Source of the DNA: Candidatus Uhrbacteria bacterium
GTDB lineage: Bacteria; Patescibacteriota; Patescibacteriia; UBA9934
Length of the DNA stretch: 64,000 bases
Direction: 5' to 3'
Assembly: GCA_963822405.1 (NCBI GenBank)
Contig: CAWGHH010000005.1
Coordinates: forward strand, 39,439-103,438
The translations under genes were made by a program, and so were the position numbers. Under the pieces are notes generated by a model. That model did no database searches. It saw only the letters and a list, made by a program, of their open reading frames with translations, and was not told the origin of the DNA. Below are positions 35,524 through 38,294 of this stretch, in pieces; within the stretch, counting starts at the first letter, position 1, and every line of letters starts with the position of its first letter.

Positions 35524-36456
35524 TCAAATTTTCGGATTTCGAAAGCAAAAGTTCTTTAATGTTAGCGACAGCTCATACGCATCGGCATGGCTACACAATC
35601 CCAGATACGACGACTCGCTTCGTTCGCTAACACGAGCGAGAGCTCGCTTTGCGGTTTCAGACCTCAAAATAGTCGCATGTGGCAAAAGGACATACCCAAG
35701 AAAATCTATTCCCTGTTTCCAAGTTCTGACACTAACTTTATTGGGATGTAGTTCAAGTTTCAACGTCTCGGCCAAGAAATACTCTAGTTTCATGGCGAGC
35801 TTCCACGCCTCTTCTCTCGATTCTGTCACAATCACAAAGTCATCACAATACCGGACATAATAATGAATCCCAAGCCGTTGCTTCACATACCAATCGAGCT
35901 CGTGCAAGTACACATTTGCAAAAAGTTGACTGGTCAAATTACCGAGAGGTATACCAACTCCAGAATACGACGAAAATGTACGAACAATGTGCTCAACTAA
36001 TAGCGTTATTTGATCACCACCAATTTTATCGCGCAACAGCCGAAGCAGAATTTCATGATTTATGGTCGCGAAAAACTTTCTCACATCACATTTCAAAACA
36101 TAAACAGTCTTCGTGTTATTCGAGCTAGCTGACCTAAGGAAGTCACGAAATCTCGCAACTCCAGCGTGCGTCCCTTTATCTATTCGGCAAGAATAACTAT
36201 CATAAATAAATCGCTTCTCAAAAAGTGGTTCGATGATATTCACGAGCGCCTGATGAACAACTCGGTCGCGAACTTGCGCCTTATGAATTGTCCGCTGCTT
36301 TGGATCATAAATGGTAAACTGTTCATACGGTCCGTGTCGATATGTTCCTGCGTGTAAATCATGTTGAAGTTCAGAAATATTTTGCTTGAGATTCTTTGTG
36401 AAAACTGTTACGTCTTCTTTTGATGTTTTTCCACGTTTAAACAGTTCCCACGCCAT
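35524..36456 (-). CDS. diversity-generating retroelement (DGR) reverse transcriptase
   Basis: 310 aa. GTYRHGPYEQFTIYDPKQRTIHKAQVRDRVVHQAL (RT motifs 1/2), KCDVRKFFATINH (motif A), GIPLGNLTSQLFANVYL (SQ-containing motif 4 diagnostic of DGR RTs), and YVRYCDDFVIV (YxDD). Confidence 0.85.
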   Translation of the reverse strand: MAWELFKRGKTSKEDVTVFTKNLKQNISELQHDLHAGTYRHGPYEQFTIYDPKQRTIHKAQVRDRVVHQALVNIIEPLFEKRFIYDSYSCRIDKGTHAGVARFRDFLRSASSNNTKTVYVLKCDVRKFFATINHEILLRLLRDKIGGDQITLLVEHIVRTFSSYSGVGIPLGNLTSQLFANVYLHELDWYVKQRLGIHYYVRYCDDFVIVTESREEAWKLAMKLEYFLAETLKLELHPNKVSVRTWKQGIDFLGYVLLPHATILRSETAKRALARVSERSESSYLGLCSHADAYELSLTLKNFCFRNPKI

Positions 36457-36560
36457 TATTAAATTATTTGTCTGCCAAATATGCCAGAAGAGACTTTTAA
36501 AGCCCCCCCCACGCCGTCACCCCTAATCACCCGATCAGGAAATTTAAACCCGAGCTCAAG

Positions 36561-36986
36561 TTGTTCCATAATGGTTCGGGAGATATTCCGTTAGTGCATC
36601 TTCTCTATCAGGCATACGCCGACTGGCACGAACTACTGTTACGATTTCCAAAATCCCAAAGATATTCACTTGGCGAAAAATCTCAAACAACTCTGCTTGC
36701 AACACTACAAGATATTCTTTCGGCCGCAGCAACCTCAAACCTTGAAATAAAGTGCTCTAAACTTCTTGAGGCGAGTGGCGAACTAGACACCCTCAAACTT
36801 CTTGCTCAACTGACAAAAAAATGTAAGTGTATTTCGAACATCCAATACCAGCAATTTGATTCAAAACTTCACTCTGCCGGCAAAATGTTAGGAGCCTGGA
36901 TTAAATCAGTGGAAAGCAAAAAAGCGCAGAACGCTCTTTTGCCTCATGAGGAGTCCCTGAGAACGGGGAACGACGTGTTGTCGTAG
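36561..36986 (+). CDS. Avd-like accessory variability determinant (four-helix-bundle family)
   Basis: FPKSQRYSLGEKSQTTLLATLQDILSA, LEASGELDTLKLLAQLTKKCKCIS and C-terminal MLGAWIKSV align with Avd/TIGR02436 four-helix-bundle proteins (FPKEE.YGLTSQ.RRAA.SI; GSASELETQL; LGSWI). Opposite strand to the RT. Its 3' end overlaps the TR. Start codon uncertain (TTG 36561 or GTG 36594). Confidence 0.6.
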   Translation: MFHNGSGDIPLVHLLYQAYADWHELLLRFPKSQRYSLGEKSQTTLLATLQDILSAAATSNLEIKCSKLLEASGELDTLKLLAQLTKKCKCISNIQYQQFDSKLHSAGKMLGAWIKSVESKKAQNALLPHEESLRTGNDVLS

Positions 36987-37069
36987 GAGTTAGCGACGTG
37001 GTTACCGTTCAAGTTCGCGTCCTGACCATTGCGGTTGACGTTCGGCGAGTAAGCCCACAGGTCATAGCC
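36954..37069 (-). repeat. DGR template repeat (TR)
   Basis: 116 nt homologous to 37349-37464. All 14 mismatches place T on the + strand (A on the minus/sense strand) in this copy. Sense-frame translation is Asn(AAC)-rich: SPNVNRNGQDANLNGNHVANSYDNTSFPVLR. Confidence 0.85.
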
Positions 37070-37332
37070 AAACACCGTCCTTTACATCTCTCCCTTCAAG
37101 GACACCGGAAGCAGGCGCACCCACTTCCTGAATTTTATGCGGAACCTACGCGAATGCTGGTTCCTAGAAGAGATGCGGAGTACTCATAAGTCCCGCCGCA
37201 CGCTTCTGAAATCCGTAGATTCCAAAACTCTGGCGGTGATTGGGACAATGAAAGTATACCAAAATCAAAATGGCACCCGGACTTCTCTGAACCACGAGGT
37301 CCAGAAAATCCGAGTGCCGAGTTTCCAAGTGC

Positions 37333-38148
37333 CTAGCTCTGCACGTACTCCCTGAGAACGGGGAACGACGCGTCGTCGTAGGAGTAAGCGACGTGGTCAC
37401 CGAACAAGACCGCGCCCTGACCATCGCGGCTGACGAGCGGCGAGTAAGCCCACAGGCCATAGCCAGACACGTTGAGCAGGATTGCGGCGGCGATGGCGTA
37501 CGGCGTCTTCACACCGTCCATCTGCTTGACCCATTCGGGGGACTGACAGGCGGCGTAGAGGACTGCGAACCCGGCAAGCTTCCCGGCCTGGGTCTTCTGC
37601 ACTTCGCCCAGGATCACGCCCTTTGGGTTGAAGTTGGCGTGAAGATCAAGCACCTCCACCTTAATACTGTTCGGGACGAATGACTCCTCTTCGAGCATCT
37701 TCACGCGGTTCTCGTCCACGCCGTTGGCGTAAGCGGCCGCCCACTCCTGGTAGGTGCCCACGAACGTATCCTTGATACGCTCGCGCACGAACTTGAGAGT
37801 GGCCGGGACGTCCTCCTTGAACACGGAGATGACGATCTCGAGCCCCTCATTCTTCGGGCTCTCCTTCTCGTAGCCGGCAATGAGCCCGCTCTTGTGAGCC
37901 AAGGCCACCGCGACGTCCACTTCTTCCGGGTTCACACCCGGGTAGGACTTGGCAATGGCGATCTTGTCCGCGAGCGTGTTGTACTTTCCGTGAATGAGAC
38001 GGAAGACCGGCTCGGACGCCAGGTTCTTCACCCAGCGCTCCATGAGTACGTCGTTCGTCAGGAGCTCGATGACCATCTTCAGCGTCCCGCCAAAGCGGAA
38101 GAAACGACGGAAGAACTCGCCAGCCTGCTCAAGATGCACATTTGCCAT
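37333..38148 (-). CDS. DGR target (variable) protein, 271 aa, VR at the C-terminus
   Basis: ORF ends ...GYGLWAYSPLVSRDGQGAVLFGDHVAYSYDDASFPVLREYVQS. The last ~40 codons are the VR. GC is about 60%. RBS GGAGAttacgaaaATG. Own consensus promoter. Confidence 0.75.
   Translation of the reverse strand: MANVHLEQAGEFFRRFFRFGGTLKMVIELLTNDVLMERWVKNLASEPVFRLIHGKYNTLADKIAIAKSYPGVNPEEVDVAVALAHKSGLIAGYEKESPKNEGLEIVISVFKEDVPATLKFVRERIKDTFVGTYQEWAAAYANGVDENRVKMLEEESFVPNSIKVEVLDLHANFNPKGVILGEVQKTQAGKLAGFAVLYAACQSPEWVKQMDGVKTPYAIAAAILLNVSGYGLWAYSPLVSRDGQGAVLFGDHVAYSYDDASFPVLREYVQS
37349..37464 (-). repeat. DGR variable repeat (VR)
   Basis: Differs from TR only at TR adenine positions (14 of 14). The 22-nt identical GC-rich 3' end (cgtcgttccccgttctcaggga in sense) is consistent with an IMH element. 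Confidence 0.85.
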
Positions 38149-38238: not shown

Positions 38239-38294
38239 ATAATAGCAAAAAAATGGCGTTTTGTCAAGCCATTTTCTGCTTATATTGGCCTAGA
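38239..38294 (-). promoter_or_regulatory. conserved promoter block, copy 2 (TTGACA-17-TATTAT) driving the DGR target gene
   Basis: Minus sense reads gcagaaaatggcTTGACAaaacgccatttttttgcTATTATggcatgg. Near-identical to 24273-24328. Confidence 0.65.

What the first reader, a model, noticed from the sequence alone, without database searches (positions are those of the whole stretch)
36457..37080. Unusual DGR architecture: avd is divergent from the RT and antisense to the TR-to-RT spacer, with its stop codon inside the TR
In characterised DGRs, avd, TR and RT are usually co-oriented. Here the TR sense strand (the strand carrying the adenines) and the RT are both on the minus strand. The ~500 nt between them encodes the Avd-like protein on the plus strand, divergent from the RT across a ~100-bp region at 36457-36560. 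The last nine codons of avd (LRTGNDVLS) are encoded by the IMH-like end of the TR read in antisense. If the TR-containing RNA extends to the RT, it must be antisense to avd mRNA. This raises questions about cis-acting RNA structure and avd regulation.
Basis: inference. Interest (0 to 1): 0.55.

Follow-up and report, generated by a model that had tools for sequence, protein, structure and literature searches.

The report
CPR-type DGR with self-contained template RNA
The back-to-front accessory gene is the normal, already published layout of mutagenic retroelements in ultra-small (CPR) bacteria and its overlap with the template is a local accident, but beside it lies a conserved folded RNA, seemingly with its own promoter and terminator, that carries the template.

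Summary
A DGR lies on the minus strand: target/VR, TR, then RT. An Avd gene lies on the plus strand between TR and RT, and its stop codon sits 33 nt inside the TR.

It is not unusual for its lineage. This is architecture "B3, TR-(avd)-RT" of Wu et al. 2018, which accounts for 90% of CPR DGRs. All 67 related loci I fetched have it, so it is not an assembly inversion.

The stop-in-TR is idiosyncratic. In about 40 of 43 relatives avd stops 7-48 nt before the TR. The window's Avd simply carries an extra tail of about 20 aa.

The inference that the TR RNA must run antisense through avd is probably unnecessary:
- The gap between TR and avd holds a conserved 9-15 bp hairpin with a U-rich 3' side.
- Upstream of the TR lies a roughly 170-260 nt structured leader (42 covarying pairs; no match in Rfam 15).
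- The leader is preceded by a conserved -10 box and by the target gene's own terminator.
- A leader segment pairs with the TR's 3' edge.

The TR therefore looks like a discrete RNA gene, with its accessory RNA upstream rather than downstream as in phage BPP-1. This is inferred from sequence, not shown experimentally.

The parts
38239..38267 (-). Sigma-70-like promoter of the target gene (TTGACA-17-TATTAT, with TG)
   Evidence: 11 of 12 consensus matches. Consensus match only.
37333..38148 (-). DGR target gene (271 aa, no family match), GC 0.60
   Evidence: no Pfam or PDB relative. It carries the VR at its 3' end.
37349..37470 (-). Variable repeat (VR)
   Evidence: 88% identical to the TR; 14 of 15 differences lie at TR adenines.
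37272..37318 (-). Strong hairpin after the target stop codon, followed by a U-rich run (37271-37259): terminator-like end of the target transcript
   Evidence: -35.7 kcal/mol. The equivalent hairpin plus T-run is present in relatives.
37253..37261 (-). Extended -10-like box TGGTATACT, 7 nt upstream of the leader RNA match
   Evidence: In 27 of 28 relatives a TAnnnT hexamer (17 with TGn) lies 6-8 nt before the conserved 5' end of the leader.
37076..37246 (-). Structured leader RNA immediately 5' of the TR. Helices: P2 (37236-37196); P3 (37176-37166 with 37094-37084); P4 (37163-37142); P5 with a UNCG-type mini-hairpin (37128-37107). Domain P1 of the relatives is missing here.
   Evidence: Covariance model R1, built without the window, gives 149.9 bits and E 4e-49 at 37246-37066, the only hit in 64 kb. 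Covariation. Own fold: z -2.9. Coordinates.
37177..37187 (-). Leader strand AUGAG-U-ACUCC, which pairs with the 3' edge of the TR
36954..37075 (-). Template repeat (TR); the sense strand carries the adenines
36946..36956 (-). TR 3' edge plus linker (GGACU-C-CUCAU), the partner of the leader strand. TR-VR identity ends at GGGA (36957-36954).
   Evidence: 92% of cells paired against 30-57% when slid; 25 double-sided changes..
36913..36945 (-). Hairpin 8 nt after the TR (stem with A-rich 5' and U-rich 3' arm): terminator-like and/or Avd-binding stem-loop. Here it lies inside the avd tail codons.
   Evidence: -18.6 kcal/mol. An equivalent hairpin is present in about 38 of 43 relatives.
36561..36986 (+). 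avd ORF (141 aa from TTG; the NCBI homologue is called from GTG 36594). The Avd domain is 36624-36911. 36912-36983 is a lineage-specific tail that reads through the hairpin and 33 nt into the TR.
36503..36510 (.). Homopolymeric C8 tract (G8 on the RT strand) in the avd-RT divergent region
   Evidence: 43 of 60 relatives have a 7-15 nt tract at the same place.
35524..36456 (-). Reverse transcriptase ORF from the first ATG. The conserved N-terminal residues (..LFWHIWQTNNLI) continue in frame upstream to about 36516 without a canonical start codon.

Best explanation
This is an ordinary member of the CPR/Patescibacteria class of diversity-generating retroelements, with the published B3 layout: target-VR, TR, inverted avd, RT.

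The avd stop codon lies in the TR only because this lineage lost the usual stop just after the Avd domain. The frame then runs on through the short TR-avd gap.

I infer that the template is made as a separate RNA of about 340 nt (about 420 nt in relatives). The proposed order of events on the minus strand is:
1. Transcription of the target gene ends at its own hairpin terminator.
2. A -10-type promoter starts a structured leader.
3. The leader runs into the TR.
4. The RNA ends at, or is at least punctuated by, a hairpin with a U-rich tail that fills the gap before avd.

A leader segment (AUGAG-U-ACUCC) base-pairs with the 3' edge of the TR (GGAGU-N-CUCAU). This closes the TR into a loop and marks where information transfer to the VR stops. 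By analogy with the Sp:TR duplex of phage BPP-1, this is probably where cDNA synthesis is primed.

On this view the RNA elements that BPP-1 carries downstream of the TR (the spacer, Sp) lie upstream here. That frees the TR-to-RT interval to encode Avd on the other strand. avd and RT would then be expressed from the divergent region between them.

What is shown: gene order, homology, RNA covariation, conserved boxes. What is inferred: transcript ends, priming site, termination.
For: DGR identity.

B3 is published and typical of CPR: (PMC5758913).

Same layout everywhere: all 24 Avd-selected loci that have an RT hit. Also 40 of 40 loci selected only by an RNA motif, of which the 33 with an RT hit all have it co-oriented.

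The Avd tail is unique: homologues end 2-9 residues after GGW(I/L)KS. The avd stop lies 7-48 nt before the TR in about 40 of 43 loci.

Hairpin in that gap:
- Perfect 9-15 bp stems of unrelated sequence are seen in 18 of 22 and 20 of 21 loci. 64% score above the 99th percentile of random 70-nt windows.
- The U-rich side is on the TR-RNA strand: mean 4.7 U against 3.3 A in 9 nt, Wilcoxon p 3e-4.

Leader:
- 51 pairs, 42 with compensatory changes.
- 91% of cells are paired against 40-49% when partners are slid.
- Covariation score is 0.64 against 0.12-0.16, with 0 of 500 shuffles reaching it.
- Model R1, built without the window, finds the window at E 4e-49 and 30 of 35 other loci.

Promoter: TAnnnT lies 6-8 nt before the conserved 5' end in 27 of 28 loci. 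The target's own terminator hairpin is upstream of it.

Leader:TR-edge duplex:
- 92% paired against 30-57% when slid, with 25 double-sided changes.
- It appears unaided in the MFE and centroid folds of the window RNA.
- TR has C where VR keeps G just 3' of GGGA in 15 of 15 alignable loci. Transfer therefore stops there.

No significant pairing was found between the 40 nt upstream of the TR and the 160 nt downstream of it, z about 0.
Against: No transcript data exist. Promoter, terminator and priming site are sequence inferences.

The hairpin could be only an Avd-binding stem-loop. Handa et al. predict one just 3' of the TR in 207 of 278 Avd-DGRs. In that case transcription may read through into antisense avd and the RT.

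Four or five relatives (L007, L018, L028, L040) have no such hairpin, and avd abuts or overlaps the TR in them.

The window's own hairpin has only 5 G-C pairs. The consensus terminator scan did not flag it.

No promoter for the RT was identified.

The inner half of the leader:TR duplex is invariant, so it is uninformative. It carries a C.C mismatch in 12 of 29 loci, including the window.

The window copy lacks leader domain P1 and canonical start codons for the conserved N-termini of RT and Avd. It may therefore be impaired.
Confidence: 0.62

Rival explanations
1. One long minus-strand transcript runs from the target (or leader) promoter through VR, TR, the hairpin and antisense-avd into the RT, as TR-Sp-brt does in BPP-1. 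The functional spacer RNA is then the antisense of avd. Sense/antisense pairing or transcriptional interference would couple avd and RT/TR expression. The hairpin would be an Avd-binding stem-loop, not a terminator.
For: - The BPP-1 paradigm; Handa et al. predict stem-loops just 3' of the TR, including in CPR DGRs.
- No RT promoter was identified.
- The terminator scan found nothing between TR and RT in the window.
- A few relatives lack the hairpin altogether.
- In the window the hairpin lies in translated avd sequence.
Against: - The hairpin has a consistent U-rich 3' side on the TR strand, and it exactly fills the avd-TR gap.
- There is no significant complementarity between TR-upstream and TR-downstream sequence.
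- Third-codon positions of the avd 3' end vary freely in the antisense sequences (by inspection).
- The covarying RNA elements, including the partner of the TR 3' edge, are all upstream of the TR.
Confidence: 0.25
2. The window's DGR is a decaying or switched-off copy. The loss of the avd stop codon, the loss of leader domain P1, and the absence of canonical start codons for the conserved N-termini of RT and Avd would all be degenerative lesions. The overlap of avd with the TR would then have no function at all.
For: - P1 is present at a fixed distance in nearly all relatives but absent here.
- The RT frame has TGA just upstream of the G-tract, and the first start would delete about 20 conserved residues.
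- The Avd tail is unique.
Against: - VR and TR differ only at adenines (14 of 15), so retrohoming acted on this VR.
- RT, Avd domain, leader core, TR-edge duplex and hairpin are all intact.
- Several relatives also lack canonical starts, so unusual initiation may be normal.
- A -10 box sits exactly 7 nt before the shortened leader. That looks like a clean deletion variant rather than decay.
Confidence: 0.2
3. The arrangement is an assembly artefact: an inversion of the avd segment.
For: None found.
Against: The same order and orientation occur in 67 independently assembled loci from many samples and several Patescibacteria classes. It is also the published B3 class.
Confidence: 0.01

Closest known systems
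CPR/DPANN DGRs of cassette architecture B3, TR-(avd)-RT (Wu, Gingery, Zimmerly et al., NAR 2018, PMC5758913; Paul et al., Nat Microbiol 2017, not readable here)
   Same: The order is identical: target-VR, TR, avd on the reverse strand, RT. There is a single target gene with no recognisable domain. The hosts of all named relatives are Patescibacteria MAGs.
   Different: Nothing at the level of gene order. Two local oddities: the Avd tail reads 33 nt into the TR, and leader domain P1 is missing. The leader RNA, its promoter box, the TR-edge duplex and the TR-avd hairpin are not mentioned in the parts of that paper I read. They have no match in Rfam 15.
Bordetella phage BPP-1 DGR RNA (avd 3' end - TR - 140-nt spacer Sp; Handa et al., bioRxiv 10.1101/2023.10.23.563531)
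   Same: - A stem-loop lies a few nt after the TR.
- A short duplex lies at the 3' edge of the TR, beyond which nothing is copied into the VR.
- A duplex sits just 5' of the TR (here P3) next to a UNCG-type mini-hairpin and an A-rich single strand.
- A G follows the strand that pairs with the TR edge, and a G in the TR lies next to the duplex.
   Different: The partner strands come from upstream of the TR, not from a downstream spacer. The TR-RT interval encodes Avd on the other strand. The hairpin carries a U-tract like a terminator. The upstream:downstream (cPRT-Stop type) pairing was tested and not found. The sequences do not match the Rfam RT motifs.
Retron ncRNA (msr-msd); the comparison is from my own knowledge, not tested here
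   Same: It is a discrete structured RNA. A 5' segment pairs with the 3' end of the template, enclosing it. A conserved G lies right after that duplex, which is where retrons prime from a 2'-OH.
   Different: The RT belongs with DGR loci and has an Avd partner. The template is a TR with a cognate VR and adenine-specific changes. The RNA is not adjacent to the RT. No msDNA is implied.

Membership tests
Diversity-generating retroelement (DGR) | TR/VR repeat pair whose differences fall almost only at TR adenines | tested here: met
   14 of 15 mismatches lie at TR adenines on the minus strand, over 122 nt.
Diversity-generating retroelement (DGR) | Reverse transcriptase gene next to the TR | tested here: met
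   RVT_1 at E 2.8e-23. RT relatives at 45-73% identity all sit in TR/VR-bearing loci. No DGR-specific RT phylogeny was run.
Diversity-generating retroelement (DGR) | VR at the 3' end of a protein-coding target gene | tested here: met
   the VR ends 14 nt before the stop of the 271-aa ORF.
Diversity-generating retroelement (DGR) | Invariant 3' block (IMH/IMH*-like) after the last variable adenine, with TR and VR diverging beyond it | tested here: met
   the last A>N change is 19 nt before GGGA, and identity ends at GGGA. TR has C and VR has G at the next base in 15 of 15 alignable loci. The function of the block is not testable here.
Diversity-generating retroelement (DGR) | Ongoing mutagenic retrohoming | not testable with these tools
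   This needs read-level VR heterogeneity or an experiment.
DGR cassette architecture B3 (Wu et al. 2018) | Core order TR-(avd)-RT, with avd on the strand opposite to TR and RT | tested here: met
.
DGR cassette architecture B3 (Wu et al. 2018) | Avd-family accessory protein | tested here: met
   PF22296 bAvd at 51.5 bits, above the cut-off of 40.
DGR cassette architecture B3 (Wu et al. 2018) | CPR host | tested here: inconclusive
   The window's origin is not given. Nearest relatives are Patescibacteria, Uhrbacteria and Saccharimonadia MAGs. A few are binned as other phyla.
BPP-1-type DGR RNA (TR followed by spacer Sp) | Stem-loop immediately 3' of the TR (Avd-binding stem-loop) | tested here: met
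   the hairpin lies 8-18 nt after the TR in about 38 of 43 loci. Avd binding is not testable.
BPP-1-type DGR RNA (TR followed by spacer Sp) | Non-coding spacer of about 140 nt between TR and RT carrying the primer and RT-binding elements | tested here: not met
   The 497-nt interval is filled by avd on the other strand. The covarying elements are upstream of the TR.
BPP-1-type DGR RNA (TR followed by spacer Sp) | Duplex between sequence just upstream of the TR and sequence downstream of the TR (cPRT Stop) | tested here: not met
   z about 0 in 20 loci. The upstream strand instead pairs with the leader (P3).
BPP-1-type DGR RNA (TR followed by spacer Sp) | Short duplex at the TR 3' edge that positions the primer | tested here: inconclusive
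   a covarying duplex exists, but its partner strand is upstream. Priming is untested.
Rfam families (incl. RT-1..RT-19 motifs of Weinberg et al. 2017) | Covariance-model match | tested here: not met
   no hit at E<=1 in the window region or in L002, and none at gathering score in four loci apart from a tRNA.
Rho-independent terminator (for the TR-avd hairpin) | G+C-containing stem, short loop, U-rich tract on the 3' side | tested here: met
   36 hairpins, mean 4.7 U in the 9 nt after the G-C core, 20 with 5 or more. The window has a U6 run inside and after the 3' arm. Actual termination is not testable here.

The most novel reading that the evidence does not exclude
In the B3 class, the commonest DGR layout in CPR bacteria, the DGR RNA may be organised differently from the BPP-1 paradigm.

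It would be a stand-alone, retron-like RNA gene: promoter, then a leader of about 250 nt with a three-way junction, then the TR, then a terminator hairpin. The leader, not a downstream spacer, would supply the strand that pairs with the TR's 3' edge. It would presumably also supply the priming nucleotide, next to the invariant ACUCC-G.

The inverted avd would be a consequence of this rearrangement. The window would be a natural variant lacking leader domain P1. As far as my Rfam scans and four literature searches reach, this leader RNA family is undescribed.
Probability: 0.35. Interest if true: 0.72.

Novelty: new member of a known kind. Interest (0 to 1): 0.35.

Why it matters
The finding as stated does not change anything. 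Inverted avd is the textbook layout for CPR DGRs, and the stop-in-TR overlap is a one-off.

What could matter is the context. DGR mechanism is known almost entirely from one phage, in which the RNA elements that prime and limit cDNA synthesis lie downstream of the template.

The loci gathered here suggest a different organisation in this Patescibacteria group of B3 elements. The elements appear to lie upstream, in a strongly covarying leader with its own promoter box. The template RNA appears to be punctuated by a terminator-like hairpin before avd.

That gives concrete, mutable sequence elements for testing how these elements prime reverse transcription: AUGAG/CUCAU, ACUCC-G, P3, and the hairpin. 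It would also help to define minimal parts for engineering DGR-based mutagenesis.

Tried and rejected
1. MAFFT plus RNAalifold on the TR-to-avd gap failed, because the hairpin sequences are unrelated. I replaced it with per-locus folding and a background test.

2. I searched for a BPP-1-like cPRT-Stop duplex between the 40 nt upstream and the 160 nt downstream of the TR. The result was z about 0, so I rejected it.

3. My first motif pattern had one N too many and found nothing. The corrected pattern found 40 metagenome loci and none in viral contigs.

4. I tested whether the C/G homopolymer in the avd-RT region is a phase-variation switch that sets both reading frames.
- In the window, one extra C would give avd an ATG and the RT a GTG start.
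- Across 33 loci the assembled states are 9 ON/ON, 9 off/off, 8 and 7 mixed, no better than chance.
- The idea is therefore not supported as stated.

5. Rfam gave no family.

6. The target protein has no Pfam or PDB relative.

7. No extra VRs were found in the window.

8. Paul et al. 2017 could not be read. A bioRxiv paper from 2026 that mentions DGRs and covariation could not be read either. Prior description of the leader there cannot be excluded.

9. An exact look-up of the window's Avd (P0001) found no contig record.

10. An apparent A>N change at the A of GGGA in seven VRs is equally well explained by 1-nt insertions that create stop codons. I did not use it.

Full report
**1. What is in the window**

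On the minus strand lies a complete DGR.
- **TR and VR.** TR (37075..36954) and VR (37470..37349) are 122 nt long and differ at 15 positions. Fourteen of these are adenines of the TR on the minus strand.
- **Target gene.** The VR closes a 271-aa ORF (38148..37333) that has no Pfam or PDB relative.
- **RT.** The ORF 36456..35524 is a reverse transcriptase (RVT_1, E 2.8e-23).
- **Avd.** Between TR and RT, on the plus strand, ORF 36561..36986 matches Pfam bAvd above its gathering score (E 1.6e-13, residues 22-117). It has 'four helix bundle protein' homologues in Patescibacteria.
- **Overlap.** Its stop codon (36984-36986) lies 33 nt inside the TR.

**2. Is the layout unusual?**

It is not unusual for this lineage.
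- Wu et al. 2018 classify DGR cassettes and define B3 as TR-(avd)-RT, with parentheses meaning the reverse strand. [quoted passage not shown]
- An Avd-profile scan of one genome per species returned 27 loci, mostly Patescibacteria MAGs. Wherever the RT was on the contig it was on the strand opposite avd. In 22 loci a TR/VR pair was found with its adenines on the RT strand.
- A scan of metagenome contigs with an RNA motif alone, using no protein information, returned 40 loci. All 40 had antisense avd downstream of the motif, and all 33 with an RT hit had it co-oriented.

An assembly inversion is excluded.

**3. The stop codon inside the TR**

- Close homologues of the Avd end 2-9 residues after the conserved GGW(I/L)KS. 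The window protein continues for about 20 more residues.
- In the relatives the avd stop lies 7-48 nt, mostly 35-43 nt, before the TR. This holds in 20 of 22 loci and in about 19 of 21 further non-redundant loci.
- Only the window (-33), L007 and L040 overlap the TR.
- The Avd domain ends at 36911, so the tail is extra.

I conclude that the ancestral stop was lost and the frame runs on until the next stop, which happens to lie in the TR. It is not a conserved design.

**4. What fills the gap between TR and avd**

- In about 38 of 43 loci the gap holds a perfect 9-15 bp hairpin that starts 8-18 nt after the TR and ends 0-8 nt before the avd stop. The stem sequences are unrelated from locus to locus.
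- 64% of the hairpins score above the 99th percentile of random 70-nt windows from the same loci.
- The stems are flanked by A's on the 5' side and U's on the 3' side. The U-richness on the TR-RNA strand is the stronger: mean 4.7 U against 3.3 A in 9 nt, p 3e-4.

This is the form of a rho-independent terminator facing the TR transcript, and a partly bidirectional one. It also matches the position of the 'Avd-binding stem-loop' that Handa et al. found just after the TR in BPP-1 and predicted in 207 of 278 Avd-DGRs, CPR included. The two readings are not exclusive.

In the window the hairpin is at 36945-36913 (-18.6 kcal/mol) and lies inside the Avd tail codons.

**5. What lies upstream of the TR**

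The VR-to-TR spacer is not junk. Aligning it across loci showed the following, in order:
1. A hairpin plus T-run after the target stop. In the window it is at 37318-37272 (-35.7 kcal/mol) followed by a U-rich run.
2. A -10-type hexamer. TAnnnT lies 6-8 nt before a conserved GGAGAGUAGG in 27 of 28 loci, 17 of them with an extended TGn.
3. A conserved leader that runs up to the TR.

RNAalifold on 19 loci gave 51 pairs in 8 helices, 42 of them with compensatory changes. Counted independently:
- 91% of cells pair, against 40-49% when partners are slid;
- the covariation score is 0.64 against 0.12-0.16;
- none of 500 shuffles reaches the observed values.

The fold has four features:
- a 5' domain P1;
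- a hairpin P2 with a conserved internal loop;
- a three-way junction closed by P3, whose 3' strand ends about 8-20 nt before the TR;
- arms P4 (variable insertions) and P5, which is capped by a GGA-UNCG-UCU mini-hairpin.

Invariant single strands include GAGUACUCCG and GCAUAAAAU(U/A)CAGG.

A covariance model built from 18 relatives without the window matches the window once, at 37246-37066 (149.9 bits, E 4e-49). It also matches 30 of 35 other loci. The misses were two loci apparently cut off by contig ends and three loci with only about 30% Avd identity.

The window leader folds into the same helices on its own (z -2.9). Rfam 15 has no matching family. Four literature searches did not find a description of it. 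I could not read Paul et al. 2017.

The window lacks P1. Its -10-like box TGGTATACT (37261-37253) sits 7 nt before the start of the shortened leader.

**6. A long-range pairing**

A column-by-column search between the leader and the TR's 3' end found one candidate. The leader segment AUGAG-U-ACUCC is complementary to GGAGU-N-CUCAU, that is the last bases of TR-VR identity plus the linker.

I tested this on a gap-free alignment of the two anchored segments from 29 loci:
- 92% of cells pair, against 30-57% when slid.
- Four pairs show 25 double-sided changes (AU/UA/CG/GC, CG/UA/UG, GC/AU, AU/GC).
- The inner five pairs are invariant and therefore uninformative.
- One inner pair is a C.C mismatch in 12 of 29 loci, including the window.

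The outer part of the same pairing (UUAUGAG with CUCAUGA) appears unaided in the minimum-energy and centroid folds of the window's whole 342-nt unit.

TR-VR identity stops at GGGA in every locus. Where the TR has C at the next base, the VR keeps G (15 of 15 alignable loci). Information 3' of GGGA is therefore not transferred.

This is the behaviour of the Sp:TR template-primer duplex in BPP-1. There the duplex sits at the TR 3' end, a G follows the primer strand, and the first template base is a G. Here, however, the partner strand comes from upstream of the TR. By contrast, the BPP-1-type pairing between TR-upstream and TR-downstream sequences is not detectable (z about 0).

**7. Most likely mechanism**

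Shown:
- the B3 gene order;
- the covarying leader;
- the leader:TR-edge pairing;
- the hairpin;
- the conserved -10 box;
- the target terminator.

Inferred:
- The TR is transcribed as a separate RNA: promoter, leader, TR, hairpin.
- The leader provides the functions that the downstream spacer provides in BPP-1.
- The RNA need not extend antisense through avd.
- avd and RT are expressed from the divergent region.

In the read-through model the hairpin would act only as a protein-binding element. The few hairpin-less loci show that some antisense overlap must be tolerated at least there.

**8. Is this copy functional?**

For:
- the adenine-specific VR differences;
- intact RT motifs, Avd domain, leader core and duplex.

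Against:
- P1 is missing.
- The Avd stop is lost.
- The conserved N-terminal residues of the RT (..LFWHIWQTNNLI before MAWE, compare bRT ITTWENLLDAY) have no canonical start codon.

Several relatives share the last oddity.

**9. Verdict**

The architecture is already published. The overlap is a local accident.

The interesting residue is the upstream leader and the discrete-RNA model. It applies to the whole clade rather than to this window, and it needs transcript mapping and reconstitution to be established.

Noticed in passing
window 37076-37246 (-), outside the finding's coordinates; also L002 4523-4772 and about 60 other loci: A conserved, strongly covarying structured RNA fills the VR-to-TR spacer. 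It has no match in Rfam 15. It is preceded by a conserved -10 box and by the target gene's terminator.
   Followed up: yes
window 36503-36510; the same place in 43 of 60 related loci: A homopolymeric C tract (G on the RT strand) of 7-15 nt, most often 9-10, sits in the avd-RT divergent region. Both reading frames are often open across it. Near-identical loci differ in its length (L045 has 9 and L055 has 10; L062 and L065 have 9 and L066 has 8). In the window one extra C would give both genes upstream start codons, but across 33 loci the frames look random. Its function is unknown.
   Followed up: partly
window 36457-36516 (-) and relatives: The RT frame is open and conserved (..DLFExIxSxENLxxAWE) for about 15-20 codons upstream of the annotated ATG. 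Several loci (window, L006, L008, L011) have no ATG/GTG/TTG there. This suggests non-canonical initiation or mis-set starts.
   Followed up: partly
window 37246-37262 compared with L002 and others: The window's leader lacks the whole 5' domain P1 (about 75 nt; GGAGAGUAGG ... GCCGAAAUCUC), which nearly all relatives keep at a fixed distance. A -10-like box is fused directly to the linker before P2.
   Followed up: partly
window 37333-38148 and the target genes of 12 relatives: The target gene is much richer in G+C (0.56-0.69) than the adjacent RT and avd (0.37-0.59) in every locus checked. The skew is not an adenine depletion outside the VR. Unexplained.
   Followed up: partly
window 37272-37318 (-): A -35.7 kcal/mol hairpin followed by a U-rich run lies directly after the target stop codon. 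The consensus terminator scan missed it.
   Followed up: yes
L022, avd-RT intergenic region: A tandem repeat of a roughly 14-nt unit (GGTAATTCGTAATT) is inserted between avd and RT.
   Followed up: no
L009, L011, L014, L021, L023, L010, L026: Large lineage-specific hairpin insertions occur at the tips of leader helices P1, P4 and P5. Some are GC-rich palindromes such as GCCTGCCTGCAGGCAGG, a variant of which (GCCTGCCGGCAGGCAGG) recurs in an unrelated position in L026.
   Followed up: no
L003, L004, L011, L018 ('Gammaproteobacteria'), L021 ('Ignavibacteriae'), L023 ('Lentisphaerae'): Several contigs that carry this Patescibacteria-type DGR are binned into MAGs of unrelated phyla. This is probably mis-binning, possibly transfer.
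   Followed up: no
L007, L018, L028, L040: A minority of relatives have no hairpin between TR and avd, and avd ends at or inside the TR edge. L007 instead has a -40 kcal/mol hairpin inside the antisense of the avd coding region.
   Followed up: partly
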